DNA of 63,529 bases, filler included, from Rhizaria sp. SCN 62-66 (lineage: Eukaryota): NCBI GenBank assembly GCA_001724265.1. It is 3 parts of 3 records of this genome, joined end to end, with 100 filler letters (N's around TTAATTAATTAA, not from the genome) between each part and the next. Parts side by side here need not be neighbours in the genome. Positions count along the whole stretch, not along the records: positions 1 to 27,552 come from MEDY01000403.1; 2 more parts are not named here. The stretch is one strand, 5' to 3'. The position numbers and the translations under genes are program-made. The notes below the pieces were generated by a model, which was not told the origin of the DNA, did not search any database, and saw only the letters and a program-made list of their open reading frames with translations. Position 1 is the first letter of the stretch. Every line of letters begins with the position of its first letter. Shown piece by piece: positions 168 to 56,406 of this stretch.

Positions 168-600
168 GGCAAATGCAGAGTCAGAAGACCGCGTTAAGAT
201 GCGTAACATTCAAGTCAAAGTTCAATAATATACATCGAACACGAGTCTCCACACGGTCACACTGGGGTGTGTATCTCGTCTGGAATGCAGCCGAATCGAC
301 AACCCAGCCAGCAGTCCACAGCATTTTTTTGCGAACCGCTGGTGTTCAGCTTATGTTCGTTCGTTCGCGCCAAGAACGAACACCCTCTTTACAAGAGTAC
401 AGCTCACCTCAACTTCCGCTAATCGCTTTCTTGTTTTGCTCACAGAGAGCGTTATGACTATACTCACATACGTTCAATTTATACGCTTTCTTGCTCCTTG
501 TTCAATTCTCCACGACAGAAACTACACCGACACTTTCTCTCGTCCGACACACGTCGTTCCACCTCCCCACAGAGCCCCCAGTCCGTTTCCTTCCGCCGCC

Positions 601-2360
601 ATGAGTCGCTTCCAGGGCCCCAGCGCGCGCCCGAAGGCCCCCCAGAACCGTCGCGCGACGTTCGCTGACTCAAACGCGGACTTCGGTGCCGTTTTCGACG
701 CCGCCGCCATCTCCGCGGGCGTCTCCGCCGCCCCCGCGACCCCCGCCGCTTCCGCCGCCGCCGTTGCTGCGGCCGACGGCAGCGACGCCGCGCGCGTGCA
801 CGCGGGGCTGCTGGGCGCGCCGGGCGGCAGCGGCGCGGCGGGCGCCGGCGGTCTCGGCGTTCGTGGCAACTACGCTGCTGCCGCGGCCGCTGGCGTCGCC
901 GCTGCGGCCGCGAGCGCGCAGCAGATGATCGCGACCCGGCCCATGGAGGCCCTGCGCGCGGACCCGGTGGGGTTCTTCGCCGGGATCGGCGCCCCGAACA
1001 TCATCCCCGTCATCCAGAACATCGTCTGCACCGTCAACCTCGCAACGCGGCTTGACTTGCAGAAGATCTCCTCCTATGTACGTCTCCTCCAACACCACTC
1101 TAAGCAAAGCAGCTTCCTTTATGTTCATGTGCTGTTTGTGTTTGTTCGAAACAATTTTGTTGGTTTTCTTTTTATCTAGGTATCAAACACACTCACATTG
1201 ACATTTCTGCATCATTATTTTGTTTTGCTGTCCTGTATATATCCCCGCATTTCTGCGTTTAAGGGCCGCAACACGGAGTACAACCCGCGCAAGTTCTCCG
1301 CCGCCATCATGCGCATGCGCGAGCCCCGCACGACGGCGCTCATCTTCCAGTCGGGCAAGCTCGTCGTCACGGGCGCGCGGTCCGAGCACGAGGCGCGGCT
1401 GGCTGCGCGCAAGTTCGCCCGCGTGGTGCAGAAGATCGACGCCATGCCGCGAGACCCGCTGGCGCTGGCGACGTCGCTCGCGGCCATCAGCGACGCGCTC
1501 GCAGCGCCGCCAGTCCCGCAGCAGCAGCAGAACGCACTCGCACTTGCACAGTCACAGGCGAGCTCCGCGGAGAGCGCTGCGCGTGGGGCCGGTGACGTGG
1601 CGGCCGCTGCCGCTGCTGCTGCGGCGGCCGCTGCGGCTGCTGGGGCGGGGGCGGGGGGCTCCTCTGAGCAGCTGCCAGCGACTGGCGTGCCGTCGGCGCT
1701 GTCCCCGGCGTCGACTTCGCTGTCCACCGCCGTCGTCGTCGCCGCGCCCCCCCATAGGACGGGGGCGGGGGCGGCTAATGTGGGCGAGGTGTCCGTGCAC
1801 TCGCCGGCCCCCCTGGCGCCGATGACCAACGACGATCTGGCGCGCCTCTCGGCCGTGCGCTTCACCGATTTTGCGGTGCAGAACGTCGTTGCCTCCGTTG
1901 ACTGCCGGTTTGCGGTCAGTCTCGAAGGCATGGTTCAAGGCCACGAGCAGTACGCGACCTTCAACCCCGAAACCTTCCCCGGCCTCGTGTACCGCATGGT
2001 GGACCCCAACGTCGCGCTGATCGTCTTCGTGTCCGGCAAGGTCGTCGTCACGGGCGCCAAGTCGCGCGCCCATGTGTACCAGGCGTTCGCGAAGCTGTTC
2101 CCGCTGATGCTGCTGCACCGCAAGGACCGCGCGGAGGCTGAGCAATGGCAGTCGGCTGAGCAGGAGAGGCTGCGCACCGCAGAGGCCGCGCTCGCGCAGA
2201 CGCTCCGCTACCAGGGCTCCGCGCAGCAGTACATCGACGGGTTTACATCAGCAGCCGCCTCGGCCGCCGCCGCTGCCACCGCTGCTGCCGCTGCTGCGAG
2301 CAACAACAGCAACAGCAACAGCAGCAGTAGTGCGAGTGCGGGCAATAGCGGCCATGCAGC

Positions 2361-2408
<48 letters not shown>

Positions 2409-2445
2409 CATGGGCACCAGTGGCGGCCGCGCCCGCAACCGCTGA
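601..2445 (+). CDS. TBP: TATA-box binding protein, divergent, with large low-complexity insert; exons 601-1077, 1264-2445
   Basis: IQNIVCTVNL..RLDL / NTEYNPRKFSAAIMRMREPRTTALIFQSGKLVVTGARSE and FAVQNVVASVD..NPETFPGLVYRM..VFVSGKVVVTGAK are the two TBP repeats; GTACGT..AAG intron joins in frame; ends TGA. Confidence 0.95.
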
Positions 2446-2970: not shown

Positions 2971-5313
2971 TCACTCAGTTTTGAGCGCAGTGCCAGCGGG
3001 GGCGTCGAGGGGGATCCACCCGACGGACACGAAGAAATCCACGATCTTATCCGTCGAGTTGACGTCAATGCGCAGGAGCTGCCGCGCCTGTCCGCGCGCG
3101 ACGAACCCCTGCGCCACGCACTCGCGCAGGATCCGCTCCTTGATGACCGTGTAGTGCTGCGGTGCGAGGCGGAGCTCGGTGCACAGCGTGCGCTCGGCGG
3201 CAGACAGCAGGTCCGACCCTTCCATGAGAGAGACGTCGAAGCCGGTGATTGCGGACAGCGGCAGCGAGCCGGGCGCGGGGCCCGCCGCGGTGAGCTCGAC
3301 GTCCGCCCCCAGCAGCAGCGCCGCCGCATCGCCTGCGCCGCCACCGCTACTGGAGCCACCGCCGGTACTCGTACCGGTGGCGCCAGACCCCGCGGGGACG
3401 ATGCCATCGGCGGTGAATGCAATGCGTGCCTTCTTCGCCGCGCGGCCCCCAGCAGCAACAGCCCCCGCGGCAGCAGCAGCAACAGCAGCGGCAGCAGCAG
3501 TGGCAGCGGAGGCGTCATCAGCGTTGTCAGCGGACGAGTCTGCTACACCCGCCCCATCCGTGTCGCCGACTCCGGTACCCGCGACAGCACCCGTACCTGT
3601 GACCGCGGCAAGCGTGCTCTGCGGCAGCGGCGCGAGCGCGGCGTCTCGGGGCCCCGCCGATGGCTCGGGGCCAAGTCCCACGGCCTCGCGGCGCGCGGCG
3701 ACGGCTAACTCGCGGCGCGCACGCTCTGTCTCAAACAGAGCGCCCTCGGCCAGCGAGCGCACGCCGTTGAGCCGGTACGCCTGCAGCTGTTCGATGCGCT
3801 GCCGCAGGCGCCGCTCGTTCAGCACGCCCTGGACCAGCGCGTCGTGGTCAGCCTGCGCGTGAAAGCGCGCAAGCGGCCGCAGCGCCTGGTGGACCTCTCG
3901 TTCATCGCGGGTCCGCTTGCGCTCGCGCCGGTGCAGCAGCCCCCGCGAGATGATGAAGTCCTTGCGTTCGCGGCGCGCGTCGAGCTTCGAGTTGTACACC
4001 TCGAGCACTTTGAGCTTGAGCGCGCGCTCCCACGGCGAGTCTTGCGCGCGGAACTCCATGTCCGCGACCAGCAGCTCGGCCTCGTTCTCGTACTAAGTCT
4101 CGAAGTCGCCGCGCTGCGGCATGTAGCCCACGAGTCCCGCGAGCGAGTTCTTCTGCTTGGAGCGGAAGAGCTGCTGCTGCACGCGCCACGTCGCCTCCTC
4201 GGCCGCGCGGACCAGCTCGCGCTCGCGCTCGGCAGCCGTCGCGCCGCCCAGCGCAGCGGAGGCCGCCGCAGCCGTCGCCGCCGCAGACCCAGCAGCCGCC
4301 GCGGCCGCAGAGCCAGAGCCCAGGCCTGCAGACGCTGGGCCCGGGGTCGTGACAGGTCCATGGCCAGCGTTGGCGGAGGCCGCCGACGCAGATGAGCTGG
4401 AGCTAGAAGATGAGGAGGAGGGCGTGGCGGGGACGGAGGCCTTGGTGATCCGCCCGGTGGGGCCGCGGCCGTGGCCGTGCAGGATCGACAGCGGCGGCGG
4501 CGGCGGCGGCGCGGCGGCCAGCAACGCGGCGGCGGCGGCGGCGGCCTCGGTGGCCGCGCTCGCGTCGGGGCGCTGCGCCGCGGCGGCGAGGAACTCGGCG
4601 GCCTCGGCCGTGGCCGCGGCGGCGTTGGCGGCGGCGGCGGCGGCGTTGCTGGCGGCCTCGATCGCGCCGGCCGTGGGGAGCGGTTCTGAGCAGTCCGGCA
4701 GCGGGGCCGTGCGGGACTCCAAGTAGCAGGCCATGTAGTGCTGCTCACACTGCTGGCGCGACTTGGAGCCGACGTAGTTGGCGGCCTCAGCCCAGTTGCC
4801 GAGTCCGTACACCTCGATGGCCTCGAGCAGGAGGAGCTCTTCGTCGGCGCCCCAGTCGGGGGTGAATATGGGCGTCGTGACGTGGTGTATCAAGCGGTAC
4901 GCGTGCGTCGGCTGATGCGGCTGCACGGCGTGGCCCGCAGCGAAGCACTGCAGACAGAGGTCGAAGTCTTTGCAGACGGCGCACTTGATGTGGAGCGCGT
5001 TTGAGATGTCGACGCGGCAGTAGTCGCAGTGGTAGGTCACCTTGCGCGACGACGAAGCAGACGACGACGAAGCAGACGACGACGCGGACGATGACGATGA
5101 CGAAGAAGAGGAACTCATCGCCTTCGCCAGCGCCGACGCGGCCGACGCAGAAAGACCGGGCGCGGGCGCGGGGGCCGCGGAAGCAGAAGCAGAAACAGAA
5201 GAAGAGGAAGAGGTGGGGGACGGGGCTGCAGTGCCGGACGCGGACGACGCGGACGAGCCAGACGCCGGTGCTGCGGCATCTCCGTCGGTCATTTTGGCCG
5301 AAGAAGATGACAT
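2971..5313 (-). CDS. ADA2: Transcriptional adaptor ADA2 (ZZ zinc finger, SANT, SWIRM); single exon with in-frame TAG at 4093-4095
   Basis: YHCDYCRVDIS..IKCAVCKDFDLCLQCF (ZZ); DWGADEELLLLEAIEVYGLGNW (SANT); GYMPQRGDFET*YENEAELLVADMEF; LLSAAERTLC..IDVNSTDKIVDFFVSVGWI (SWIRM). The two track ORFs share one frame; ends TGA. Confidence 0.95.
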
Positions 5314-5891: not shown

Positions 5892-6784
5892 TTAGTTGGC
5901 GAGCTGCGCCTCGCGCTCGCGCTCGCGTTCCAGCTCGCGCTCGCGCTCGGCCTCAGCCTCCTCCGCTTCCCTGGTTGCCTCGGCCTCCTTGGCCATGCGG
6001 ATGCCCTTGGCGACGGCCTGCTCCAGCTTCTTGCGCGTCGCCGCTTGGCTCTGGCCGGAAGTCTTGTCGACGATGTCGAACAGCGAGCGGCCCTGCAGGT
6101 CCTTGATGTGCATGTTAGCGCCGATCTTTGCGAGGTAAGTCACGACCATGAGACAGCCGTTCTCGGCCGCGAGCATTGCGGCCGTCATGCCGTTGTTGTC
6201 CTGCGCGTTGACGTTGGCGGCGCCGGAGTCATGAAGGAACTCGACGACCTTGAGGTTGTTCGACATGCCCGCGATCATGAGCGCAGAGCGCCCGTCGGCG
6301 GCCTGGAGGTCGACGTCGGCCTTGCTGGTGACGAGCGCCGAGATGATGTGGTGCGAGTTCGTGAACGCGGCCTTCATCAGCGCGGTCTGGCCAAACTTGG
6401 TCTGCGCGTTGAGGTCGGCCTCGTTCTTGAGCAGGAACTCGACGACGTCGAGATAGCCGCCGAACGAGGCGTAGATGAGCGCGGTCTGGCCGTACTTGTC
6501 GGCGAGGTTGATGTCAGCCTTGGCCTCGATCAGGTCGCGCACCTCCTCCAGCTGACCGTTGTTCGCCGCAATCATCAGCGCGGTGTTGCCAAACTACGCG
6601 GGCGGGGACGTGAGGGCATCGAGTGAGGTTCGTGTGTTGTGAGAAAGTCGGAAGAGATTGTGGGGAAGAGTGAGCTCGAGCTCTTAGTAACAAGTCAGGG
6701 TTACAAAGAGGAAATAGCAAGCGAGGGACAAATACGTACCGCATCTTGGGCGTTAATGTTCTTTTGGTTCTGCTGGCCCTCCAT
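5892..6784 (-). CDS. Ankyrin-repeat protein with C-terminal charged coiled coil; exons 6784-6740, 6593-5892
   Basis: Repeats GNTALMIAA, GQTALIYAS, GQTALMKAA, GRSALMIAG, GMTAAMLAA; splicing GTACGT..TAG restores INAQDA-FGNTAL; ends TAA. Confidence 0.9.
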
Positions 6785-7226: not shown

Positions 7227-10200
7227 ATGTCCAATGCAGATCCCTTTTCGAACGCGCGACAGCTTGCAGACGCAGCCCACCACGCTTTTTAGTCACCTGG
7301 TGACGCTTTATCTCGTCACTCTTTGCATCATTTGATGCAAGCATCCGACGATTCCGGAGTCACTCTAACACTTTCTTTGGACCACGTCGACACAACGCGC
7401 TGTGAGCCCGGTCTTGCGTCCGTTCTGAGCTACACCCCCGCACCCCTTCCCGAGCCGGCCTTCGACGCCTACCTCACTGCGCCAACGCCCGCTTCGGCCT
7501 CCACACCCGCGTTCTCGATCTCGGCCACATCGGGTCCAGGCTCTGTTACTGCGACCGCGACCGCGACGCTCTCTCCGCGCCGCCCTGCAGACGCACCGTC
7601 TCGCGCCGCTTCAGTCTCATCCTCATCCTCAGTCGCTGGTGTTTCTGCTGCTTCTGTTGCTGCTGCTGTGGCTGACGAGCGCGACCTCTACGACACAGCC
7701 CTTGCGAGCACGCATCTCCTGGCCAAGTCCCGCTTTGCGATCCAGCGCCTGCAGCAGGAGCTCGACGCCGAACGCGCGCGCCGCCCATTAGACCGTCAGT
7801 CAGACCGCCCTTTCGACCGTCCGCTAGAGCGCCCGCTCGAACACCCGCGCTCTCCCTTCGTGCACAGCTCAGGCGCCTTCGTCTCCTCAGGACTCGAGGC
7901 CTCAAACGCAGTGCCCGCGCCCGCGCACGTGTCCGCGCCCCCGCTGCCCGACCCTATCGGCCCCCCTCCGCCGTCCCAGCCACACTACACACACGCGCAC
8001 GCACACGCACAGCTGCACTCGCAGTCACAGCGCGCTTTGCTTAACAACAGCATGCACCCCATGTACGCGAACGCATACAACCCGCACACGCATGTGCCCG
8101 GCTACGCGCGCGCCGGCCCTTTGCACGCTGCACACTACGCCATGCCCATGCCCATGGGCGTGCCGGTGCCCGTGGCGACGGCGGCCCCGTCGCACCCGGG
8201 CGTGGCGTCCCTCACGGCGGCCGCCGCGCTCGCAGCAGCAGCCTCCCGCGCCTACCCCACTGCGTCCAGCTCCAGCTCCGGCTCTAACAGCAGCAGCAGC
8301 GGCAGCGACTACAGAGCCGGTGACCGTGAACGCGACCGCGACCGTGACCCGCTGGGCGCGGGCGTGGCGGAACACATGAGTGCTGTTGACGCACGCATGC
8401 GGACCTTGCGGGAGCGCGAGCGCGAGCTCCAGAACCTTCAGGCGTCCGTCCACGGCATCGCCGCCGAAGCCTGCGGTAGTAACGGCGGGGGCAATAACGG
8501 CGGGTTCGCGCCGCCGTGCTCTGGCGCGCCAGGGGAGCCATGCGCGTGCGGCGGCGGCACCCGCCCCGGTGGCAGCGCGGCTTCGGGCCGCCTGTGCCAG
8601 CGGTCGATCCTCGCCTCGCTCGACGCCCTGCGCGTGCGCGTCGCGGCCGCAGAGGCCATGCACGTCGACCTGGTTGCCACCACCGAGGATCTGCAGCAGC
8701 GCGCGTTGGCGGCAGTTGAGGCCGCGCGCGACGCCGCGCACCGCGCGCATGAGGACGCCGCCGCGCGCGCCGCCGCCGCGGTCGACGCTGCGCGCGAGTC
8801 GGCGCGGCGCGCGCAGGAGGACGCCGAGGAGCGCGCGAGCTCGCTTGCCGCCGCCGCCGCGCGCGCCGCAGAGGACCGCGCGACCGAGGCGGCGCGCGCG
8901 CGCTTTGGCGCCGCCGACGCCCGCGCGGCGCGGGAACTGGCTGACGCAGAGGCGCGCGCCGCCAAGGAGCTGGCCGCCGTGCGCGCACGCGCGGAGGCGG
9001 CCGAGGCCGCGGCAGACGCAGCGCAGCGCGGCGGTGACGCACTGCAGCGCGCGCGCGACGCTGCCGAGGCCCGCGTCGAGGCCGCGTACGCCTCGGGCGC
9101 CGCGGCAGGCCGCGCTGAGGCCGCTGCCGCAAACGCTGCGGCCGAGGAGGCGCAACGGCGTGCCGAGAAGATAGTTGCCGACGCCACGAGCGAGAAGCAG
9201 CGCGCGCAGGCCGACGCGGCGCGCGCCCAGGAGGCCGCTGCGAGCGCCAACACGCGCGCGGACGCCGCGATCGCCGAGGCTGCGCGCGAACGCGAGGCTG
9301 CCGCGCGCGCGACGGCGCAGGCGGCGGCGCAGTCCGAGTCCGCGCGGGCGCGGGCGACTGAGGACACGGACAAGGCGCGCGCGGAGGCGCTCGTGGCCGC
9401 GGAGCGCGCGCGCGCGGAGGCCGCCGACACGGCCGCCAAGGCCAAGGCCGCCGCAACTGAGGCCATCGAACGCGCGCGCGCCGAAGCGGCCGACGCGAGC
9501 GAGAAGGCACGCGCGCTGGCGAGCGAGGCGTCGTCGCGCGCACAGGCGCAGGCTGCCGAGGCCATTGCGCGCGCCGACGTGCAGAGCGCCCGTGCAGAGG
9601 ACGCGTCGCGGCAGCTCGCCGCACTGCAGGCCGACCTTGCCGCAGCGCGCGAGCAGACGCGCTCGCTGGACGCGCGCGTCGACGAGCTGCGGCGCGAGGC
9701 CGCGCAGTCCGCGGCGGCCGCGGCCGCGGCGACGGCGGCGCAGGCCAAGGACGCCGTGACTGCCGCGGCGGCGCTGAACAAGGACCTCGCCGCGGCGGCT
9801 GCGATGCACTGCAAGGACGCCAGCGCGCTGCAGGCGGCGCACAGTAAGGATATCGCCGCCGCGGAGGCCGCGCACGAGCGCGCGCTGCAGGCCGCCGAGG
9901 CCGCCGCCGCGCGCGAGGCCGCCGCGATCGGCGCGGCGCACGCGCGCGAGCTGGCAGCGGCGCGCGACGACGCCGCGGCCGCGCGCACGGAGACCACGGC
10001 TGCGCGCGCAGAGGCCAGCGCGGCCCGCGACGAAGCCGCGGCGGCGCGGCTCGAGCTCGCGGCCGCGCAGAGCCGGCTGGCCACCGCGCAAGCCGCGGCC
10101 GCGGCTGCGGAGGCGCGCAGTGACGCGGCGCAGCGCGCGCTTGACGAGGCGCGCACGGGCCTGGTTGAGGCGTTGCGCGCGCAGACCGAGGCGACTGGGT

Positions 10201-11894
10201 CGGCACAGGCTCAGCTGCTACAGCAGCAGAAGGAGCTGCTGGACCGTGCCTCTGCAGCGGCGTCAGAGGCGCTGAACAACGCCGTCTCACTCAACGCGAC
10301 TGCGAGCAATGCGGGCGGCTACAGCAAGCCGAGCGGCGCCTGCTGCTGCGCGCCTTACGGCTGCGGAAACGGAACTGGGACTGGCTCTGGCGATGTCGAG
10401 GGTGGAGGGCCCTCGTGCCCCGGCGCCGCGCTGGCTCTGCGGACGCAGGAGCTGCTCGCTGTGCGCACTCGACTGGGCGCGGCGCTGGAGGAGCTCGCGG
10501 CTGCGCGCGGCGAGACCGCACTCGCGCGCGCCGCGGCCGGGGCCGCTGCTGCGGAGGCTGCGGCTGCGCGCGAGCAGCTGTCGGCGAGCGAGGCTGCGCG
10601 GAGCAAGCTCGCCGCGCAGGCCGGCGACGCCGCGGCACGCGCGAGCGAGACGGCGCGCGAGCTCCGCGCCGCGCTAGGCGAGCGCGACGCCGCCGTGGCG
10701 CGCGAGACCACAACAAACCACGCGCTGGCGGCGGCGCGGCAGGCGGCCGAGCTGGAGCAGGCGCGCGCGCGCAACCAGGAGGAAGCCGCGGCCGAGGCGC
10801 TGCAGCGGCAGGCCAAGAGCAGCGCCGACGCGCGCAGAGAGGCCGCCGCCGCGCTGGCCGCCGCGCACGACGACGCGGCGCGCGCTGCGTCGGGTGAGGC
10901 TCTGCGCGCGAACGCGGCCGCCACGTTTGCAAAGGAAGCCAACGAGCGCGCGCGCAAATGGAAGGCGGCCGGCAAGGCGTACCGCGACCGTTTGCACGCA
11001 GCCGAGGCCGCGGCGCGCGCGCGCGAGCAGGAGCTCGAGGCCGCGCTGCTGGCCGTGCGCGCCGACGCCGCCGCGCTGGCAGTGCGCGAGGCCGCCGCCC
11101 AGGGCGAGCTCGCGCGCGCGCGCACGGCGGCTGAGGGCTCTGCCAGTCCGCTGTGGGCGGAGGCGCAGCGGCTGCGCGAGCGCGTGGTGCACCTGGAGGC
11201 GTTGCGCGCCGACGACGGTCACGCCGCGCTCGCGCGGGTCGTGCAGGCGCAGGTCAGGGCCGAGGCCGAGCTCCGCGTGAAGCGCGACGCAATCACTGCT
11301 GCGGAGGAGGCCGCGGCGCGCGCTGCTGCGGAGGCGGCGCGCGTGGCGGCCGAGGCGGGCGAGGCGGCTGCTGCCAACGCGCGGCGCGAAGCTGAGCTGG
11401 CCGCGCTGCTGGCCGAAGCGCGTTCTACCGTCGCGGCTCTGCAAGAGCAGCAGGAAGAGCTGGCCGCGGTCGCCGCCGCGCTCGCTGCGGCTGACGCTGC
11501 CGCGCGCCGCGGGGCCGCCAACGACGCGGGCCGCGTCGCTATTTCCTCCGAGGCCGCGGCGTCGAGCGCGGCGGCGCTGGACGCGCTGGCGTCCGTGCTG
11601 GAGCGTCTGATCGCGGCCGCGCAGTTCAGCCCCACTGCCGCGCTGGCGCCGCATGGCCACGCGACTGTGCGGTGCCGTCTGCCGCCGGCGCAGACGCAGC
11701 CGGTAGGGGGCGTGGCGGCGCCGGCGCGAGGGGCAGGGCGCGGAGTTGTGACGACGGGCGGCATCCCGCGGCCTTCACACTCGCACCTGCACAGTCACAC
11801 GACGCCCGTGCCGACCGCCAATGCAGTCGCCGCGGCGGAGGCGCGGGCCAACCGCGACGCCATTCTCGCTGCGGGCGGCTCGGTCATCGCGTAA
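7227..11894 (+). CDS. Large Ala-rich coiled-coil protein of unknown function; probable ATG 7227 with in-frame TAG at 7290-7292 (alternative ATG 7335)
   Basis: >1500-codon open frame with GC-rich codon bias and long A/E/R helical runs; upstream ATG in the same frame separated only by TAG; ends TAA. Confidence 0.8.
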
Positions 11895-17948: not shown

Positions 17949-18296
17949 CCGGGCTGAAAAGGAAAGAAATGCGTATAAGACTGCATTTTGTAAGATCTTG
18001 ATTTATAATTCATAATTAGTAAGCTGTATAGTACTTGGTTAACTCTGTTTTATCCGACTTGACGATCAGAGTTCTGAGATAATGCGTTATCAAAGTTGCT
18101 GATGCAGCCCGACCACACGTCTCGATTTTCGACCGCGCCCACCATGTCAGAGTCGTAACAAGTCTTATTGATTAGAGCCAGATGATTTAACATTAAATGC
18201 TCATACCACCGGATGTTAATAAAACATGTGTATATTATATTGAAATAAACCTGTCTTACGAGAACGATAACCTTGTTAATAATGCATTTTCAGACT

Positions 18297-21200
18297 ATGC
18301 TGCCGGCTGGCGCCTTCGGACCCGAGCGGCCGATGCACGCCGCTGCGGCCGCAGCTTGGCTCACCTCGTCCTCGTCTTTCTCGGCCGAATTTGCCAGCGC
18401 ACCCTACGACTGGCCCCGTGCGCCCGCCGTGCCGGACCTTGTGCTCGTGATGCAGGCGCTGCCCGACACGCCGCTCATCCGCCTATTTCTCCGCCTCACG
18501 CTCGCTCTCTGCGCTGCGCCCAACGCGCAGTCGCAGCGGCAGGGCCAGAAGCCTGCTTCGTACGGCCGCGAGGCTGACGGGCGCGTGCCCGGAAAACACG
18601 ATTTTGGGGCCATAACGCGGCTCTTCCGCGCGCAGGCCGCGGCAGAGCAGGACAGGCTGCTCGCATAGCTGCTCTCAGGCGACTCAAACGACGGCGCAAA
18701 CGAGGGCGCAGACGTGAACGCGGGCTCGAACGCGCGGTGGCCGCAGCGAAACGAGCAGAAGCAAAGCGGCGATGGCGCTGGTTATGCTCGTGCGGTGAGT
18801 GATGACGAACAACATGAGCGTCGTGTAAAGACCGAGCAAAAAATCAAACTCGAGGAGAATGGACAGCGGCAGCAAGATTCATCGCTGTTGCATGCATCTG
18901 GATACCACTCGTATGACCGCGACGGGGACCCAGGCGCAACGTACGCGGCTGCGTTTGCCGCTGCGGCCGCGGCGGAGGCTGCTGAGGAGGCTGAGGCCGC
19001 CGCTGCAGAGGCCGCGGAGGCTGCGGTAGCGGCTGCTGCAGACGCAGCTGACGACACAGATGACGACGATAGTCGGCCATATCATCGCAGCAATACCTCC
19101 AGTGCGAGTGCCAGTGCGGGTGTGAGGGCGACTGTCCACGACGGCACCAACGGCAGCGACAACAGTGACGGAGCCGAGAGCCACGCGCAGGGCACCGCTG
19201 ACCATGGGTACCGGGGGTCCCACAGCAACAGCGACTGCGGCGACGACGATGAGCAGCAGCAGGAGGAAGACGAGCTCGACTGGGACTATCAGGCCGACGC
19301 CGTGGACACCGACAACGAGGCCGAGACCGCCGCCCTCGCCGCCGCGCTGGCCGCCGCCGCCGAGGCCGCCGAGGACAACATCGGCGACCACGCAACGACC
19401 GTGAGCAGCGCCGACCCACTCACGGCCCCGGGTGCCGGCGGCGCTGGCACGGGTGCAGCTGCCGCGGGCACCGGTGCCGGCGACGGCCCTGGGGCCGGGG
19501 TTGCTGGGGGCGCGCGCGTGACTGTGGCGCTGCCGCAGGCGGCGCCGCCGTGTCTCGACGACGTGATGGAACTCCGCGACAGCAGCAGCAGCAGCAGCAG
19601 CGACCGTGACAGCGACAACAACGACGATGACGACGACGACTACGACGATGCCCACAATGACGATTACGAGAATACCAATACGAACTACGCCAGGAGCAGC
19701 AACGTCTTCAACGATGTCGACGACGAATACTACGGCCACAGTAAGAGTTACACTGCCAACGACGACTACGAATATGGCCTAAAACGCAGTAGCGGCAAGA
19801 AAACGGCTGTCAAGAAAGAGCATCTCTCCAGCGCCACCGCCGCAGCCGCTGGTGCTGCTGCTGCCGCATATGCAGTCCCTAGTTCCAGTCTGAGCTCTGT
19901 TGTGTCTAGTTCCTCCAGCTCTTCCTTGGCCGCAGTCGCCACGCCCCGCCTCGATCTGTCACACCGCAGCGACTTGGCCTCCCTGCGCGCGCGCCTCGCA
20001 TCTCACCCGCTGCCCTCGCGCGCGCCCGCTGCGCTCACCGCGCCCGTCGCACCGGCCAACGCTGCGACTGCAGCGGCAGGCACACTGCGCACTGCTCTCG
20101 CGGCTGCGGGTGTCACGGGTACCACCTGCACTGGAGCAGGCGCGATGGCGTCGCTGCCGCGGCGGCCAGAGATGGGCTTTCTCCCGCCGCGCCCGCTGCC
20201 CGCCGCGTCTCTGCTGGTTAACCGCGCTCCTCCGCCCGACCCCTCTGCCCTCGGCAACGCGAACGGCGGCGCGAATTGCGGCGCGAGTGCTGCTGCGGCG
20301 GGCGGGCGTAAGCGGGCGGCGCCGGGTGCGGCGCGTGGCAAGGGCGCTGCGGCCGCGAAGGCTGCGGCAGCTGCCAAGGCCGTTGCGGCTGCCGAGGCGG
20401 CTGCTGCGGCTGCGCAGGCGGCGGCGGCCGCCGCGTCGCGTGGCGCTGGTCCCGGCTCTGGCGCGGACGCAAGCGCTGCGGCCGCCGCAGCCGCCGCCGC
20501 GACTGAGGCCGCCGCAGCCGCCCGCGCCGCCGCAGCCGCCGCAGCTGCAGCCGCTGGCCCTGGCCGTGGTGCTGCTGCTGCTGGAGCGAAGCCGAAGCGC
20601 GCGCGCAAGCCCCCCGCCGGCAGCGTGCTCCGCGGCGGCGGCGGCTTCGTCCTCGACTCTGGTGAGGCCGCGCCCGCGCCCGCCATTGCGCCTGCAGCAC
20701 GCCGCCGTCACAATGCAGCCGTAGCCGCAGCAGCTGGCGCTGGGGTAGACGCTGGCTCTAAGCCCCGCGCACGCCGCTCCAAGAAGCAAAACAACGGCGG
20801 CGACGACGGCGGCGGCGGCGATGGCGGGGGCGGCGGTCATGGACGCGATGACACAGAAGTCGGCGAGACCGAAGGCATGGGTGACGCCGGGGCGGACTTC
20901 GGCCTCGGGCCCGGCCAAGGCTTCTGGCCCCGCGGCCGCGCGGGCGCCATGGCCGTCGCGCCCGTCGGCGACGGCACCGGCAGCGCGCGCGGCGGCATCG
21001 CCGGCAGCAGGGTCGCCGCGGGCGTAGCGCCGCAGCTCGCGCAAAGCACCGGCAACGGCAACGGCAAGAGCGGCGGCGGCGGTGGCGGCGGCGCGGCGCT
21101 GGGGTCTGCGCCGGTCGGGGGCTCGGGCGGTGTCATTGGCGGCGGCGGCACGCTCGGCGGTGGCGGTGGTGGCAGGCCGCTTGCGCAGATGACCGCGGCG

Positions 21201-22169
21201 CAGCTCGCCGGCCTACAGCACCGCCCGCAGATGCTCGGCGTCGGCGCAGATGGCGGCAGCGGCGCGGGCAGTGCAGCCGGTGTCGGCGCGATGGCCGGTG
21301 GCCTGGCCGGCGTGCCGCTAGGCAATCGCGCCGCGCCCCCCGCCGCGCACGCGCACGCACTGCCTCCTTGGGCCCGGCCCCCCTCTTCCGCCGCCGCCGC
21401 CGCCGCGTCTGCTGCCGCCAACGGCAGCAACGGCGGCAGCGCGTTTGGTGCCCGCGGCGTGATTGGCGTGGCCGAGCTGGCCGCGCTGGGCCGCCGCGAG
21501 GCGCGAGAACACCAGCGCCGCGTGTCTGCCGCGGCGGCGCCGCACCACAACTTCACCGCCGCGGGCGCCGCCGAGGCCGCGGGCGTGGCGTCGGGCCGTG
21601 CCAGGCAGGGCCGCGGCGGCCGCGGGCGCGGCGGGCACGCGCGTGTCGGGGTCTCAGCGCTTGACACGCGCCGGCCGCTAGGCAGCGCGCAGGCGCAGGC
21701 AAGTGCTGCCTTGGGCGCTGGCAGCGGCGGCAGTGGCGGGGGTGCTCAGGTGGTGACGCTGGCGTCGTCGGCGCTGGCGGCCGCGGCGGCGCTGGGCAAG
21801 GAGTGCGTGCGGCTGACGAACGTGTTCCGCGCGCAACACGCGCTGCCACCGCTTGAGTGGCACGGGACGCTTGCCGCGGTTGGCTTCGGGCACTCGCGCG
21901 ACATGGGGCTCGGCAAGGCGCCGTTCGATCACGTCGGCTTCGCGGGCCGCGTGCGGAGGTACCCGTTCCGCGCGCGCGCAGCGGCGGAGAACCTGGCGAT
22001 GATGAGCGGCGTCGGCGTCGCCGCGATGGCGCAGACAGCCGTACAGGGCTGGGTCGAGTCGCCGGGGCACCGCAAGAACCTGTTGTGCCGCGCAACGTGG
22101 TGCGGCGTCGGTGTCTTTAAAAACAGGGCGGGGACTGTTTATTTCACGCAGCTCTTTGGGCTTCAGTGA
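18297..22169 (+). CDS. Long low-complexity protein with C-terminal CAP/SCP domain; in-frame TAG at 18666-18668; start uncertain (ATG 18282 or 18297, or an upstream exon)
   Basis: TNVFRAQHALPPL..HSRDM..FDH..AAENLA..AVQGWVESPGHRKNLL..GVGV..YFTQLF is a CAP domain; track ORFs 18273-18668 and 18714-22169 share one frame; ends TGA. Confidence 0.85.
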
Positions 22170-23130: not shown

Positions 23131-25363
23131 TTAGACGTACTTGTCAGGAACCCACTTCATGGCGGCCATGGGCGGGCGCACGTAGTCCTGGCAGTGCTTG
23201 CGCGGGGGCAGGATCGAGGCCTGAGGAGTCAGGTCCTGGTACGGGATCGACGACAGGAAGTGCGAGATACAGTTGAGACTAAACAAATAAAGCAAACAAA
23301 GAAGAAGACAAAAAAGGACACAAAATGAGAAGCATGTGAGAGGTGAGTTTAAACAATAAAAGCAGACAAAAAAAAATGAACCTGACATTTTAAGTGAAGC
23401 ATGAGTGATGAATCATCGTGGGATCGTACCGAGCGAGCTTCTTGTTGTCGGCGTGGACGTGGACCCAGGGCGCAGTGTCAGAGTCGGTGAACTTAAGCAT
23501 GTCGTCCTTGGCCTTCGAGTACTCGACCCAGCGGTTGCGCGACTCGATATCCATGGGGGAGAGCTTCCAGCGCTTGGTCGAATCGTCCATGCGGGACTGG
23601 AACCGCTTCTCCTGCACGTCATCTGAGACGGAAAACCAGTACTTGAGCAGGAGGATGCCTGAGCGGATGATCATCTCCTCGAAGATGGGGCACGAGTGCA
23701 TGAACTCACGGTACTCCTCGTCGGAGCAAAAGTCCATCACGCGCTCGACGCCGCCGCGGTTGTACCACGAGCGGTCGAACAGCACGATCTCACCGGCGGC
23801 AGGCAGGTGCGAGATGTAGCGCTGGAAGTACCACTGCGTGCGCTCGCGCTCCGTGGGCGTGCCCAGTGCCACGACGCGGCAGATACGCGGGTTGAGCTTC
23901 TCCAGCACACGCTTGATCACACCACCCTTGCCGGCGGCGTCGCGGCCCTCGAAGATGACGACGACCTTGAGGCCCTTGTGCTTGACCCAGGCCTGGAGCT
24001 TCACGAGCTCGACCTGTAGCGCGGCCAGCTCGGCCTCGTACGCAGAGCTGCGCTTCGCCTTGGCCATGCGCGTGATGTTGATCTGGCCGGGCAGCAGAGG
24101 GCGCACCATGCCGGGTGCAATCGCAGGTACGAGCTGCTCGTACTTGGCGGCGGCGCAGTCGTCGACGGCGGCCTCCTTGTTCTCGGTCCCAGCGCCGCTG
24201 GCCGCAGTGGAGTTGGCGGAAGGGTTCTGCAGAAGTTCCGCGAGAGCGGCCTGCGCAGCGGCGGCCTCGGCGGCCTTCTTCTCCTTCTTCTTGTTGGCGC
24301 GCTTCTTCTTCTTGTCCGCCTTCTTGGCCTTCTTGCCCTTCTTCTTGCCATCCTTGTCCTTGTTGTTGCCGCCGGCGGTGGACTCTGTGGCGCCAGCCTC
24401 GGCGGGGGCATCGTCGTCCTCGTCGTCGTCCTCGTCCTCATCGTCCTCGTCTTCGCCTTCCTCGCCCTCAGACTGCGCAGTCGCCTCGGAGTCGGGCGCG
24501 CGCGCGATGTGCTTCTTGTCCTTCTTACCGCCCTTCTTGCCTTTCTTCTTGCCGCCGACCTCGTCGTCGTCACCGTCGTCATCGTCATCGCCGTTCAAGC
24601 CAGCGCCGGCGCGCTCGAGCCACTCGGCGCCGCCGACGCGGCCGCCCATGACGCCGCCGACGGGGGAAGCAACGCCCGACAGCGTGGACTCTGCGCCGCG
24701 GCCAGACTTCTTCAGCGCGGCGGCCGCCTTCTCGGCCTTCTTGTCCTTGTTCTTCTTCTCAAGCTCCGCCGCGGCGACGCGCTGCGCCTCCGGGGGCAGC
24801 GCGGCGGCGGGCAGGAACTGGTAGCCCAGCACGGGGTCGTAGACGAGCACCTGGAGGCCCTTCTTGTCCTTCTTGCCCTCCTTCTTGTCGCCCTTCTTCC
24901 CGTCCTTGCCCTTCTTGTTGCCGTCGGGCAGCGCGTATGAGTGCGAGGTCGCTGCAATGGGCGCCGCGGCCGCTGCGGCGGCGACGGAGGAGTTCTTGAC
25001 AGGCTTGCCGTCAGCAGTGACGGTGGCGTCATCTTCGGAGTCGCTGCGCATGCGAAGCATGTCGCCGTCGTCGTCCTCTTCATCGTCGTCGTCGCTCGCG
25101 CCGCCCTCCTGGTGCATGTAGCGGTTCACCAGCTCGGGGTTCTGGCGTAAGAACTCGAGCGAGCGCTGCTGCTTACGGAGTTCCTTGTTGCGCTTCTTCT
25201 CCGCCTTCTTCACGGCCTTGTCCTCCTTGGACTTCTTAATCTTGTTGCCCTTGCCCTTGCCTTCCTCCATGGGCAGCGCTGGCGCCGGCATAGACGCCGG
25301 CGGCACCACAGCCTCGACAGGAACAACGGGAACGGCCGAATCCTCAGCCAAATGGGAAGACAT
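23131..25363 (-). CDS. ppk2: Polyphosphate kinase 2 (single-domain, class I-like) with long Lys/Asp/Glu-rich N-terminal extension; exons 25363-23430, 23278-23131
   Basis: FEGRDAAGKGG (Walker A), WYFQRY, LFDRSWYNR (Walker B), KYWFSVS, WKLSPMD, APW; splicing GTACGA..TAG restores KLAR-LNCISHFLSSIPY; ends TAA. Confidence 0.95.
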
Positions 25364-27552: not shown

Positions 27553-27652
27553 NNNNNNNNNNNNNNNNNNNNNNNNNNNNNNNNNNNNNNNNNNNNTTAA
27601 TTAATTAANNNNNNNNNNNNNNNNNNNNNNNNNNNNNNNNNNNNNNNNNNNN
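27553..27652. other. Assembly gap with artificial six-frame stop linker
   Basis: 100-nt block of Ns with TTAATTAATTAA at 27597-27608. Confidence 0.95.
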
Positions 27653-40629: not shown

Positions 40630-40689
<60 letters not shown>

Positions 40690-41088
40690 AGCAACGGCAA
40701 CGGCTGGAACGGCGCTGGTGCTGTTGAGAGCGAGACGATGGTGCTGCTGCGCCAGCTGCAGCAGCAGCACGAGCAGCAGCAGCAGCAGCAGCAGCAGGCT
40801 CAGGCCCAGGCTCAGCAGCAGCAACAGCAGCAGCAGGCGCAGCTCGCGCAGATGCTCTTGCAGATCCAGCAACAGCAACAGCAGCAGCAGGCTCAGCAGC
40901 AGCAGCAGCAGGAGCAGCAGGGTGTCACCATGGCGGCAGTCACCGACGCGTTCCTCGCCGCGCGCGCCCAGGCCTCCGCCGCACCCGCCAACAACAACAA
41001 CAACAACAATGGTAACAACAATGGCGGCCTGAGTGTCAACGACATTGCTGCGCTGCTAGCGTCGCTGCAGCAGGCACAGGCGATGTAA
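37664..41088 (+). CDS. Putative transcription regulator: N-terminal SKI/SNO/DAC-like domain plus long A/S/N/Q-rich tail; exons 37664-37835, 38165-41088
   Basis: EIAILKSTGVLGKRAPSCSLLNAEDTIRL resembles Ski [35 protein letters not shown]..TAG intron; polyQ/polyN tracts; ends TAA. Confidence 0.75.
40630..40686 (+). repeat. (AAC)n coding microsatellite (poly-Asn)
   Basis: Uninterrupted AAC run in frame; (CAG)n runs nearby. Confidence 0.9.
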
Positions 41089-43525: not shown

Positions 43526-43598
43526 AGTTCTATAGCTCAGTGGTATGAGCATTGGTCTAATAAGCCAATGGTCCTGGGTTCGACCCCCAGTAGGACTA
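43526..43598 (+). tRNA. tRNA-Ile(AAT)
   Basis: Acceptor AGTTCTA/TAGGACT, anticodon arm TTGGT-CTAATAA-GCCAA, T-loop TTCGACC, followed by an oligo-T Pol III terminator. Confidence 0.95.
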
Positions 43599-45516: not shown

Positions 45517-45598
45517 GTGTCGATAGATAAGTGGTTTAAATCGTTAGATTCAGGTTCTAATGTCTCCGGACGCGCGGGTTCGAACCCCGTTCGACACA
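45517..45598 (+). tRNA. tRNA-Leu(CAG)
   Basis: Acceptor GTGTCGA/TCGACAC, TTAGA-TTCAGGT-TCTAA, long variable arm, oligo-T downstream. Confidence 0.95.
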
Positions 45599-46329
45599 TT
45601 CTCTTTTTTTTGCCCCTTCCAGACCTTCCCGACATTTAATCATTCGCCGGGAGAATTCTACTTTCTTTTTTGCATCTTTTTGCATGCTGTCACCGCTTCG
45701 TTCCTGTTGACAAATTGCAGCGTCAGCGAGCCATCATCAGTGCGACTGGCTAACAACAACTTGATCAAGGGTACAGTACGCAAAAAGTTATTAACTGAAA
45801 TAACTGTTAAATAGCTGATAGTATGCACTGGGCAACCTCCGTAGGCAGCATGAACCGCATGTACACCGCAGCGCTGCTTCGTTGCTATGCCCAATATGTG
45901 CTCCAAAGTAGAGGCCACTGGCCGATGGATTCAACTTGTATAATACAGCTGCGAGTGTCGTTTACTCGAGTCACTATGACGACTTTTAACTAGTCCTGCG
46001 TAGTGTCACTCTTCGGCCCAACTAAGTGCAGCATGACGGCAACATCATCGGAGTCATAAAGAAGTCACAACTTGAACAAAAAAGTGATCGTGGCATAAAA
46101 CGTGATCTATTAATATTCAAATATGAAAGAAAAGTCGAGAGCGCGAAAACTCCCAGAGAAAGACTCTGTCGTGTTACAATGTCACAATCAGCAGTAATGT
46201 GTTGTAGGCCAGAGGAATTCTCATGGATACTAATACTATTGCAGCAACCTCATTGAATTGTCAATCATCAATATTAATATAAAATATTTTTGCTTCAAGT
46301 ACAAGTCAAGTAGAACTGACAACAGTACA

Positions 46330-55170: not shown

Positions 55171-56359
55171 GCCGCGGCCACGGCCGCCGCGTAGGCCCGC
55201 GCGCGCGCCGCCTCGGCCCGGAGCGCCACGCCCAGACGCGTGCGCCGCGCGCGGGCCAGCGCGGCGGCCGCGGCCAGGAGCCGGCGAGCACGGGCCAGGA
55301 AGGCGTGCACCTGGCCGGGTGCAACGGTCAGCAGCAGCAGCGCGGGCGACAGCGACCCGCCGGGCGTGGGCGCGGGCGCGGGCGCTGGGGCAAAGCTGTT
55401 ATAGCTATGTTGCTGGTGCGCTTGTTGTTGCTGGGGGTCCTGAGCGAGCGCGGCCTCCGCGTCCGCGGCCGCGGCGGCGACGGCCCTAGCGTCGGCGGCC
55501 CGGAGCGTTCCTGCGCCGGCGCGCTCGCGCTCCAGCGTGTCGGCCAGCGCGGCCAGGTGGGACTGCAGCCGCGCGCCGTGCCGCAGCAGCGCGGCCGCGG
55601 TCGCCGCGGCGGCGCGCAGCGAGCCCGTGTAGAGCGGCACCAGGCGGCGCAGCGACGGCGGGAACGACGACTGCGACGACTGCAAAGATTGTGAGTGTGA
55701 AGACTGTAGCTATGACTGTGAGCACGGGCGGGAGCAGCGGGGGCAGCAGCAGGCAAGCGAAGAAACAGCGTTGTTGCTGCTGCTGTTGTTGTTGTTGTTG
55801 TTATTGTTGTTGTTGTTGTTGTTGTTGTTGCAATCACGCTTTGCAGTGGCAGCAGTCGTGGCAGCCTCTTCTTCTTCGGCCTCTAAAAAGGCCCGCAGCA
55901 ACCGCCGCTGGTCGCGCCGCTGCTGTTGCCGCTGACCGAGAGTCTGACCGTCAGCGTCGATATGAGCGAGACTAATGCCGTCGTCATCGTCACTACCTTT
56001 GTCGTCGCCACTATCGTCGGCGTTTTCGTCATAGTAAGCTCGGATGCTGTGACTAACATTCGCGTTCACATAGAAACTCAACGAACACCCCTCACACACA
56101 ACGACAATATTGTGACTCCCATGACTGTCGGCGCCCCTCTCGCCGACGTCGCCCGCAGCCCCCGCGGCCGCGTGTTCCCGCCACGCCCACTCGCGCGCGA
56201 GCCGGCCCAGCCGCGCGGCCTCGGCGGCGCACGGCGCGAGCCCCAGTGCGCGCAGGCGCCCCGCGAGCGCGGCGACGCGGCCGGCCACGGCGCCCAGCGC
56301 GGCAGCCAGCGCGCTCGAGTGCGCCAGCGAGACGGCCGCCGCGCGCTGCAGCGCCACGC

Positions 56360-56406
<47 letters not shown>

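What the first reader, a model, noticed from the sequence alone, without database searches (positions are those of the whole stretch)
4060..4128. In-frame TAG at a conserved Glu of ADA2
Seen: the minus strand reads GGC TAC ATG CCG CAG CGC GGC GAC TTC GAG ACT TAG TAC GAG AAC GAG GCC GAG (GYMPQRGDFET*YENEAE). Known from recall: yeast Ada2 has GFMPGRLEFETEFENEAE, and plant/animal ADA2 also have Glu there. The spacing is exact, leaving no room for an intron, and ZZ, SANT and SWIRM domains are all intact. This is the strongest single site and points to UAG=Glu, or conservatively Gln.
Basis: partly seen in the sequence, partly recalled or inferred. Interest (0 to 1): 0.9.

Follow-up and report, generated by a model that had tools for sequence, protein, structure and literature searches.

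The report
In-frame amber codon in ADA2
An otherwise intact ADA2 transcription-adapter gene of an uncultured wastewater protist has a TAG codon where all relatives have glutamate, and the neighbouring genes hint that this organism reads TAG as an amino acid rather than as stop.

Summary
On the minus strand, an intron-free ADA2 gene (ATG 5313 to TGA 2971-2973, 780 codons; ZZ, SANT, ADA2 middle and SWIRM domains) has one in-frame TAG at 4093-4095. That column is Glu in 37 of 37 homologues. A contig from a different study carries the TAG, so it is not an assembly slip.

The window is three joined contigs of a GC-rich, intron-bearing eukaryote from wastewater or bioreactor metagenomes. Its ADA2 groups with Rhizaria.

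Further support is modest:
- None of 15 complete gene models closes with TAG (10 TAA, 5 TGA).
- Two more TAGs (18666-18668 and 55710-55712) lie where the same frame looks coding on both sides. No TAA or TGA does (5/43 against 0/90).

I could not reach a tRNA(CUA), eRF1, the whole genome, or RNA reads over the site.

Odds:
- UAG read as sense here: about 0.6, with Glu the likeliest meaning.
- Young nonsense allele or pseudogene: about 0.2.
- Leaky or ambiguous UAG: about 0.1.

UAG=Glu with UAA and UGA kept as stops would be a new nuclear code variant. It is not proven from this window.

The parts
2971..5313 (-). ADA2 (transcriptional adapter 2) gene. Single exon, 780 codons plus TGA stop.
   Evidence: Translation, coordinates, Pfam domains, PDB match 9ynv_M at E 4e-67.
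4093..4095 (-). In-frame TAG, codon 407, at a column that is Glu in all homologues. This is the finding.
   Evidence: Column is E in 37/37. An X3 contig covers 3425-4453 with 0 differences.
4891..5028 (-). ZZ-type zinc finger of ADA2 (residues 96-141).
   Evidence: PF25299, E 6.8e-13.
4732..4857 (-). SANT/Myb domain (residues 153-194).
   Evidence: PF00249, E 1.1e-08.
3913..4134 (-). ADA2 middle domain (TADA2A-like_3rd, residues 394-467). It contains the TAG.
   Evidence: PF22941, E 4.1e-26, profile positions 1-74 of 77 matched without a gap.
3013..3213 (-). SWIRM domain (residues 701-767), downstream of the TAG and intact.
   Evidence: PF04433, E 1.7e-09. 70% identical to relative P0001 over residues 695-768.
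18666..18668 (+). Second candidate sense TAG, in the long N-terminal low-complexity part of a CAP-domain protein gene (about 18282 or 18450 to TGA 22167-22169).
   Evidence: The frame holds only this one stop in 439 codons (18249-19565); the other two forward frames hold 13 stops each. It is the best coding frame on both sides. There is no ATG between the TAG and 19566. CAP domain at the C-terminus. No homologue evidence.
55710..55712 (-). Third, weakest, candidate sense TAG, in a low-complexity protein gene (ATG 57143, open to the contig end at 55173).
   Evidence: Coding score in the same frame is 0.20 before and 0.24 after the TAG; the other five frames score -0.26 to -0.98. 179 open codons follow. 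No homologues found.

Best explanation
In this uncultured, GC-rich, probably rhizarian eukaryote, UAG is no longer a dedicated stop. It is a rare sense codon, about 3 per 10,000 codons here. The ADA2 mRNA is translated through codon 407 into a full-length protein of 780 residues. The inserted residue is most probably glutamate.

Inferred mechanism, not shown: a tRNA-Glu whose anticodon changed from CUC to CUA reads UAG, and eRF1 has lost efficient recognition of UAG. UAA and UGA remain the terminators.

Shown:
- the TAG is real DNA;
- it sits at an invariant Glu in an otherwise intact, conserved gene;
- TAG closes none of the gene models in the window;
- TAG alone among the three stop triplets occurs with coding sequence in the same frame on both sides.

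Inferred: that it is translated, which amino acid is inserted, and the tRNA and release-factor changes.

Of the 0.6 given to this reading, about 0.7 goes to Glu, 0.15 to Gln and the rest to other residues.
For: 1. ADA2 has a single in-frame TAG inside the Pfam middle domain, with no gap in the alignment to 9ynv_M. The column is E in 37/37 homologues. The nearest relatives, P0001 and P0040, have E there.

2. The TAG is reproduced in a contig of another study (X3, 3425-4453, 0 differences). The fragment that ends at it is on record from 5 contigs.

3. Sequence downstream of the TAG looks constrained.
- There is no further stop or frameshift in 373 codons.
- The coding score is 0.36, against 0.44 upstream.
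- Identity to six outgroup homologues over residues 408-535 is 56-63% for the window, 59-70% for P0001 and 57-61% for P0040. SWIRM gives 45-58% for the window and 45-62% for P0001.
- The one strain difference seen downstream (3739, run X4) is synonymous, GCT to GCC.

4. Closing stops of the 15 gene models whose 3' end lies in the window are 8 TAA and 7 TGA. After modelling two terminal introns they are 10 TAA and 5 TGA. None is TAG. TAG is 21% of all stop triplets in the window, so P(0 of 15) is 0.027 at that share.

5. I counted stop triplets with 60 stop-free codons on each side and a coding score above 0.1 on both sides. The result is TAG 5 of 43, TAA 0 of 18, TGA 0 of 72. Fisher p is 0.003. 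It is 0.032 if the TBP-intron site and one antisense site are set aside.

6. The CAP-gene TAG (18666) has 299 coding-like, ATG-free codons behind it and 128 open codons before it in the same frame.

7. The two clear introns of the window start GTACGT and are AT-rich. Nothing of the kind surrounds the three TAGs.

8. UAG read as Glu by tRNA(CUA) derived from tRNA-Glu has a precedent (PMC10553269, passages read).
Against: - Only one of the three TAGs sits at an alignable, conserved position. The other two rest on frame statistics in low-complexity proteins that have no homologues (1 weak hit in 1.84 billion representatives) and no domain near the TAG.
- The codon model was trained partly on ADA2 itself and on the C-terminal part of the CAP gene.
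- GAG is the commonest Glu codon (440 of 499 Glu codons), so GAG to TAG is also a very likely nonsense mutation.
- There is no tRNA with a CUA anticodon among the 8 tRNAs of the window.
- With n = 15, the absence of closing TAGs is expected in 9-21% of cases if the organism simply uses TAG for 10-15% of its stops.
- In-frame continuity across an intron that holds a TAG does occur here by chance (TBP, 1177-1179).
- RNA cover of the site is not shown.
- The window is a join of three contigs, so gene counts may mix bin members.
Confidence: 0.6

Rival explanations
1. Standard genetic code. The TAG is a recent G-to-T nonsense mutation of a GAG codon, either a null allele fixed or common in this clonal population or a young pseudogene. 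ADA2 function is lost, or supplied by another copy or allele. The other two TAGs are then an ordinary stop (55710) and an upstream-ORF stop or mis-modelled start (18666).
For: One base separates TAG from the GAG expected at that column. GAG is very frequent. Relatives have E there. The samples that share the TAG are nearly identical in sequence (0 differences over 1-2 kb pieces), so they may be one clone. No suppressor tRNA lies in the window. The two extra sites have no homology support.
Against: - There is no second lesion in 780 codons, and conservation downstream is normal.
- The stop lies inside a conserved domain of a normally single-copy chromatin gene.
- The same window also shows 0 of 15 closing TAGs and a TAG-specific excess of same-frame coding on both sides, which this reading leaves to coincidence.
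- The CAP ORF would have 299 coding-like codons with no start codon.
Confidence: 0.22
2. UAG is ambiguous or leaky. It still terminates, but near-cognate or low-level suppressor decoding (typically Gln, Tyr or Lys at UAG) gives enough full-length ADA2. This would be programmed or tolerated readthrough rather than a clean reassignment.
For: In-frame TAG is very rare (3 in 10,496 codons), as expected if it is still costly. Two of the three candidate TAGs are followed by C, which I recall from the general literature (not from any call) as the weakest termination context.
Against: - There is no stimulatory RNA structure behind the ADA2 TAG: the 120 nt fold is weaker than shuffles, z +1.43, and 187 of 200 shuffles fold as well.
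- The ADA2 context is UAG-U.
- No gene model in the window uses TAG to terminate.
- Near-cognate decoding would put Gln, Tyr or Lys at an invariant Glu.
Confidence: 0.1
3. mRNA editing restores a sense codon. Examples would be A-to-I making UAG read as UGG, or U-to-C making CAG. On this reading the genome carries TAG but the message does not.
For: None from this window. It is only that RNA cover of the site was not shown. That A-to-I repair of premature UAG occurs in some fungi is recalled, not from any call.
Against: Editing would give Trp or Gln at an invariant Glu. No RNA-specific difference at 4093-4095 is listed for the polyA RNA run X5, though its cover there is unknown.
Confidence: 0.03
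4. Sequencing or assembly artefact: the true codon is GAG.
For: G-to-T is a known oxidative-damage artefact of library preparation (recalled).
Against: An independent assembly of another study (X3, depth 8.1) has the same sequence over 3425-4453 with 0 differences. No alternative letter is listed in the 4 runs. The fragment ending at the TAG is recorded on 5 contigs.
Confidence: 0.02

Closest known systems
Oligohymenophorea sp. PL0344 (ciliate) nuclear code: UAA=Lys, UAG=Glu, UGA stop (PMC10553269; abstract and passages read)
   Same: UAG is decoded as glutamate separately from UAA. In-frame UAGs fall at conserved Glu columns. The mechanism there is tRNA-Sup(CUA) genes most similar to tRNA-Glu(CUC/UUC), which is the mechanism I infer here.
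   Different: It is a ciliate with an AT-rich macronuclear genome, and UAA is reassigned as well. There UAG is common (63 UAG at conserved sites in 46 genes). Here UAA closes 8-10 of 15 gene models, UAG is rare (3 candidates in about 10,500 codons), and the organism is not a ciliate (long GC-rich contigs; ADA2 groups with Rhizaria).
Rhizarian exLh (Sainouroidea): UAG=Leu, UAA and UGA stops (PMC5304391; passages read)
   Same: Only UAG is reassigned, UAA and UGA are kept as terminators, and the supergroup is probably the same (Rhizaria). It is the same kind of evidence: in-frame UAG only, and terminators never UAG (56 UAA and 15 UGA there).
   Different: There UAG is Leu and abundant (384 UAG in 71 genes; 82 of 86 hyperconserved sites are Leu). 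Here the one informative site is an invariant Glu, where Leu would be highly disruptive, and UAG is rare. Whether the two organisms are related was not tested.
UAG=Gln-only codes: Iotanema spirale (PMC5304391); Hartmannula sinica and Trochilia petrani (PMC11687900, abstract)
   Same: UAG alone is reassigned. In Iotanema UAG is scarce, as it is here.
   Different: The meaning there is Gln. Here the aligned column is Glu in 37/37. Gln is possible but less likely.
UAR=Glu codes: peritrich ciliates (Campanella, Carchesium; mentioned in PMC10553269) and Blastocrithidia nonstop (PMC12153298, abstract in the search listing)
   Same: A stop of the UAR box is read as glutamate.
   Different: Both UAA and UAG are reassigned there (plus UGA=Trp in Blastocrithidia). 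Here UAA is the commonest closing stop.
ADA2/TADA2 transcriptional adapter of SAGA/ADA histone acetyltransferase modules (PDB 9ynv_M, 6cw3_E)
   Same: The full domain order ZZ, SANT, middle domain, SWIRM. Over the aligned cores it is 60-73% identical to the nearest environmental homologues and to Paulinella.
   Different: It has long Ala/Ser-rich inserts (780 aa against about 430-600 aa) and the in-frame TAG.

Membership tests
ADA2/TADA2 transcriptional adapter | N-terminal ZZ zinc finger followed by a SANT/Myb domain | tested here: met
   PF25299 at 96-141 (E 6.8e-13) and PF00249 at 153-194 (E 1.1e-08). Residues 94-209 align to 6cw3_E at E 7.6e-36.
ADA2/TADA2 transcriptional adapter | ADA2 middle domain (TADA2A-like_3rd) | tested here: met
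   PF22941 at 394-467, E 4.1e-26, profile positions 1-74 of 77, spanning the TAG.
ADA2/TADA2 transcriptional adapter | C-terminal SWIRM domain | tested here: met
   PF04433 at 701-767, E 1.7e-09. Aligns to 2aqe_A and 2cuj_A.
ADA2/TADA2 transcriptional adapter | Uninterrupted reading frame under the standard code | tested here: not met
   TAG at codon 407. Database gene calls split the gene into P0041 and P0039.
Nuclear stop-codon reassignment (UAG as sense) | Many in-frame UAGs at conserved positions in several genes | tested here: inconclusive
   One site at a conserved column (ADA2, 37/37 Glu). Two further sites are supported only by frame and codon statistics. Only about 17 genes were available.
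Nuclear stop-codon reassignment (UAG as sense) | UAG not used as a terminator | tested here: met
   0 of 15 gene models with a 3' end in the window close with TAG. The sample is small: P = 0.027 at a 21% share, and 0.09-0.21 at 10-15%.
Nuclear stop-codon reassignment (UAG as sense) | Cognate suppressor tRNA with a CUA anticodon | tested here: not met
   The window holds 8 tRNAs (Ile-AAU x2, Leu-CAG x3, Ala-AGC x2, Ala-CGC) and none is CUA. The rest of the genome cannot be tested.
Nuclear stop-codon reassignment (UAG as sense) | eRF1 changed in its stop-recognition motifs | not testable with these tools
   There is no eRF1 gene in the window and no whole genome is held.
Nuclear stop-codon reassignment (UAG as sense) | UAG present in the mRNA, and a peptide across it | not testable with these tools
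   Only contigs of the RNA run X5 were available. No listed piece covers 4093-4095. There are no proteomic data.
Programmed stop-codon readthrough | Stimulatory 3' context or RNA structure behind the stop | tested here: not met
   The 120 nt after the TAG fold no better than shuffles (z +1.43). The context is UAG UAC GAG.
Pseudogene | Further disabling lesions or relaxed constraint after the stop | tested here: not met
   There is no other stop or frameshift. Downstream identity to outgroups is like that of intact relatives. Codon bias is kept. A very young pseudogene is not excluded.
Pseudogene | An intact paralogue that carries the function | not testable with these tools
   No whole genome is held. 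The metagenome-contig scan gave only two short N-terminal contigs of the same gene.

The most novel reading that the evidence does not exclude
An uncultured rhizarian-like protist of activated sludge uses a nuclear genetic code in which UAG alone is reassigned to glutamate, while UAA and UGA stay terminators. That combination is not among the codes I found in print (searches; UAG=Glu is reported only together with reassigned UAA). It appears to be caught at an early, low-usage stage of codon capture in a GC-rich genome.
Probability: 0.4. Interest if true: 0.85.

Novelty: new variant of a known kind. Interest (0 to 1): 0.68.

Why it matters
Nuclear code changes outside ciliates are few, and cases where UAG and UAA have different meanings are fewer still.

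A UAG=Glu-only code in a non-ciliate would add an independent origin and a new table. At about 0.03% of codons, it would also show an early stage of reassignment, when the codon is still rare. That stage bears on the debate between the codon-capture and ambiguous-intermediate routes.

There is a practical side as well. Standard gene callers split such genes: the database holds this ADA2 as two fragments. Eukaryotic bins from wastewater would therefore be mis-annotated.

If the TAG is instead a nonsense allele, the finding is ordinary.

Tried and rejected
- Whole genome: not held.
- Metagenome-contig scan with ADA2: only two short contigs (L001, L002), 100% identical, covering residues 1-281 and 1-261. 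Neither reaches the TAG.
- Viral-contig scan: nothing.
- Genome-contig scan with alignment A1: one 1.5 kb MAG contig with a 37% relative (L003), of no use.
- Homologues of the 55710-TAG protein among 1.84 billion representatives: one weak hit (E 2.8e-4, low-complexity stretch). There is no support either way.
- DUF383/HGH1 protein searched for taxonomy: only the window's own protein and one unnamed JGI relative. Two cluster look-ups named only Paulinella, Nonionella, a 'Ploeotia' transcriptome entry and Chlorella sp. A99.
- RNA cover of the TAG: runs X4, X5 and X6 show depth in the bin 4003-4669, but no listed piece over 4093-4095. This is not counted for or against.
- TAG 1177-1179 in the TBP gene: rejected as evidence. 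It lies in an AT-rich GTACGT...AG intron.
- TAG 6594-6596 upstream of the ankyrin ORF: rejected. It is the 3' splice acceptor.
- TAGs at 7290, 25369, 28167 and 30594: upstream of start codons in non-coding-like sequence.
- TAG on the + strand at 33887: antisense to a gene.
- An intron from 18560 (GTACGG) to 18668 that would remove the CAP TAG: it is 109 nt, GC-rich, and would need the lower-scoring upstream frame. Judged unlikely but not excluded.
- ORF models dropped from the stop tally: the '+' ORF 57546-58694, because the coding frame is on the minus strand (57648-58682); and ORF 30942-32879, because its coding score is -0.05 and it has no Pfam hit (it closes with TAA).
- Two coordinate or frame slips were corrected.
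- Supplementary tables of the cited papers could not be seen. They may hold per-gene UAG lists that would sharpen the comparison.
Full report
**What is there.** The minus strand between 5313 and 2971 is one open frame of 780 codons that closes with TGA (2971-2973). Its only interruption is a TAG at 4093-4095, codon 407.

Pfam finds the full ADA2 architecture:
- ZZ_ADA2, residues 96-141;
- Myb/SANT, 153-194;
- TADA2A-like_3rd, 394-467 (E 4e-26, profile 1-74 of 77);
- SWIRM, 701-767.

The TAG lies inside the third domain. The best solved relative, 9ynv_M ('Transcriptional adapter 2', E 4e-67), aligns GYMPGRLEFETEYCNEAE to GYMPQRGDFETxYENEAE without a gap, with E opposite the TAG. All 37 hits of a search of 5.8 billion proteins were aligned. 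The column is E in 37 of 37.

**Is the TAG real?** The window matches wastewater, bioreactor and activated-sludge metagenomes of several studies. I laid contigs of four runs that are not the possible source run.
- Run X3, from another study, has a 1217-nt contig (depth 8.1) on 3425-4453 with 0 differences and 0 gaps. It bridges the TAG by hundreds of bases.
- No other letter is listed at 4093-4095 in any of the four runs.
- For X4, X5 (polyA RNA) and X6, no listed piece covers the TAG, and the table is cut. Transcription of the TAG is therefore not shown.

The protein collection holds this gene as two fragments called under the bacterial code. P0041 ends ...GDFET and is on record from 5 contigs. 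P0039 starts MEFRAQ. A sequencing or assembly artefact is thus very unlikely.

**What organism?**
- The window is three contigs joined by N44-TTAATTAATTAA-N44 spacers, at 27553-27652 and 55071-55170.
- Genes are GC-rich, with GC3 of 0.8-0.9.
- The spliceosomal introns are AT-rich and start GTACGT (TBP and ankyrin genes).
- The nearest ADA2 proteins are unnamed environmental sequences: P0001 (best-segment identity 67%) and P0040 (62%).
- The nearest named ones are Paulinella micropora, P. chromatophora and Nonionella stella.
- In a quick maximum-likelihood tree (the careful search did not finish), the window groups with P0001, P0040, P0009 and P0010 (SH-aLRT 100). That group sits inside a 15-row clade (SH-aLRT 99) whose named members are those rhizarians, plus a 'Ploeotia' and an amphipod transcriptome entry that may be contaminants.

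I therefore call it a probable rhizarian, on one gene only.

**Does the rest of the window speak to the code?** I built a codon log-odds model from nine Pfam-supported ORFs. It includes ADA2 and the C-terminal part of the CAP gene, which is a partial circularity. With it I scored all frames.

First, closing stops. Seventeen frames score as clearly coding, and fifteen of them have their 3' end in the window. They close with 8 TAA and 7 TGA. In two of them a GTACGT donor lies 34 or 48 nt before the closing TGA, and the modelled last exons end in TAA. That gives 10 TAA, 5 TGA and 0 TAG. TAG makes up 21% of all stop triplets in the window. At that share, 0 of 15 has P = 0.027; at 10-15% it has P = 0.09-0.21.

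Second, a symmetric test. For every TAA, TAG and TGA in all six frames, I asked whether 60 stop-free codons lie on each side and whether both sides score above 0.1. This holds for 5 of 43 TAGs, 0 of 18 TAAs and 0 of 72 TGAs (Fisher p = 0.003). The five TAGs are:
- ADA2;
- 18666;
- 55710;
- the TAG inside the TBP intron, which by chance keeps the frame;
- one antisense site.

Setting the last two aside gives 3 of 43 against 0 of 90 (p = 0.032).

**The two extra sites.** TAG 18666-18668 lies in the frame that ends in a CAP domain. Between 18249 and 19565 that frame has this single stop in 439 codons, while the other two forward frames have 13 each. It is the best-scoring frame in every sub-window on both sides. 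No ATG lies between the TAG and 19566, so 299 coding-like codons would lack a start under the standard code. Upstream ATGs exist at 18282 and 18450. The one at 18450 is followed by a hydrophobic stretch that could be a signal peptide, as expected for a CAP protein; that is my reading and not a tool result.

An intron that would remove the TAG (18560 GTACGG to 18668) is 109 nt and GC-rich, and it requires the worse upstream frame.

TAG 55710-55712 closes a 477-codon ORF under the standard code. The same frame stays open for 179 more codons, to the contig end. Its coding score there is 0.24, against 0.20 before the TAG, while the other five frames score -0.26 to -0.98. In that very GC-rich stretch the other two frames of the strand have only 1 and 3 stops. 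This is therefore the weakest site, and no homologue exists to test it.

**Constraint downstream of the ADA2 TAG.**
- There is no further lesion, and codon bias is kept (0.36 against 0.44).
- Identity to six outgroup homologues over residues 408-535 is 56-63% for the window, 59-70% for P0001 and 57-61% for P0040.
- Over the SWIRM domain it is 45-58% for the window and 45-62% for P0001.
- The one strain difference downstream (3739, run X4) is synonymous.
- A second, more distant ADA2 transcript in the polyA RNA run differs at 16 listed places in 4801-4913, upstream of the TAG. By my arithmetic from the table, 13 of them are third codon positions.

This excludes an old pseudogene but not a fresh nonsense mutation.

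**Which amino acid?** Only the ADA2 site is informative. The column is Glu in 37 of 37, including the closest relatives. GAG to TAG is one step and would be silent if UAG is Glu. Gln, Leu, Tyr, Lys, Ser or Trp would each be a replacement at an invariant acidic position. I therefore favour Glu (about 0.7 given reassignment). One site cannot settle it.

**Mechanism.** By analogy with the ciliate PL0344, where ten tRNA-Sup(CUA) genes are most similar to tRNA-Glu (PMC10553269), I infer a tRNA-Glu(CUA) and a release factor with weakened UAG recognition. Neither is in the window: the 8 tRNAs carry no CUA anticodon, and the genome is not held.

Programmed readthrough has no support. The 120 nt behind the TAG fold no better than shuffles (z +1.43).

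**Comparison with what is known.** UAG-only reassignments in print:
- Leu in the rhizarian exLh and in a phyllopharyngean ciliate lineage;
- Gln in Iotanema, Hartmannula and Trochilia (PMC5304391 passages; PMC11687900 abstract).

UAG=Glu is reported together with UAA=Lys (PMC10553269) or as part of UAR=Glu (peritrichs, Blastocrithidia). Three full-text searches showed no report of UAG=Glu with UAA and UGA kept as stops, nor of any code change in a wastewater rhizarian.

**Verdict.** The odds are:

| Reading | Probability |
|---|---|
| UAG decoded as sense in this organism (Glu most likely) | about 0.6 |
| Young nonsense allele or pseudogene | about 0.2 |
| Leaky or ambiguous UAG | about 0.1 |
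| Editing or artefact | about 0.05 together |

The whole bin, a tRNA scan and raw RNA reads would decide it quickly.

Noticed in passing
27553-27652 and 55071-55170: The window is not one contig. Two spacers of 44 N + TTAATTAATTAA + 44 N (an all-frame stop linker) join three contigs: 1-27552, 27653-55070 and 55171-63529. Gene order across the spacers is arbitrary, and bin purity is unknown.
   Followed up: partly
43526-52010: A low-GC (41-44%) stretch of about 10 kb holds 8 tRNA genes (Ile-AAU x2, Leu-CAG x3, Ala-AGC x2, Ala-CGC). They are arranged as direct and inverted duplicate copies with conserved flanks of 100-170 nt. No protein-coding signal was seen there.
   Followed up: partly
454-2445 (+): TBP gene with a roughly 186-nt AT-rich intron (GTACGT at 1078 to AAG at about 1264) that happens to keep the frame and contains a TAG. 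It also has an unusually long Ala/Gln-rich insert between the two TBP repeats.
   Followed up: partly
23393-25363 (-): A eukaryotic-looking gene (high GC3, long N-terminal extension of about 438 residues) carries a bacterial-type polyphosphate kinase 2 domain (PF03976, E 5e-98). It may be a horizontally acquired PPK2.
   Followed up: no
4801-4913 (run X5): The polyA RNA run holds a second ADA2 contig that differs from the window at 16 listed places, mostly third codon positions. This points to a related species or strain in the same sludge. Its codon at the TAG column could not be seen.
   Followed up: no
16091, 13619, 14370, 6739, 1078 and others: The 5' splice sites of this organism appear to follow a strict GTACGT consensus. 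Several further GTACGT sites lie at the ends of short coding-like segments (35492, 35869, 37836, 59800, 60580), which suggests unannotated multi-exon genes.
   Followed up: partly
7335-11894 (+), 38176-41088 (+), 52456-55068 (-): Three long, strongly coding-like ORFs (1519 aa, 970 aa and more than 870 aa) have no Pfam family at E <= 0.001. They are Ala/Gln/Ser-rich proteins of unknown function.
   Followed up: no
L003 (CAZOXW010000109.1, 1534 nt): A contig filed in a bacterial MAG ('uncultured Bacteriovorax sp.') encodes a eukaryotic ADA2 homologue (37% identity). It is probably a mis-binned eukaryotic contig.
   Followed up: no
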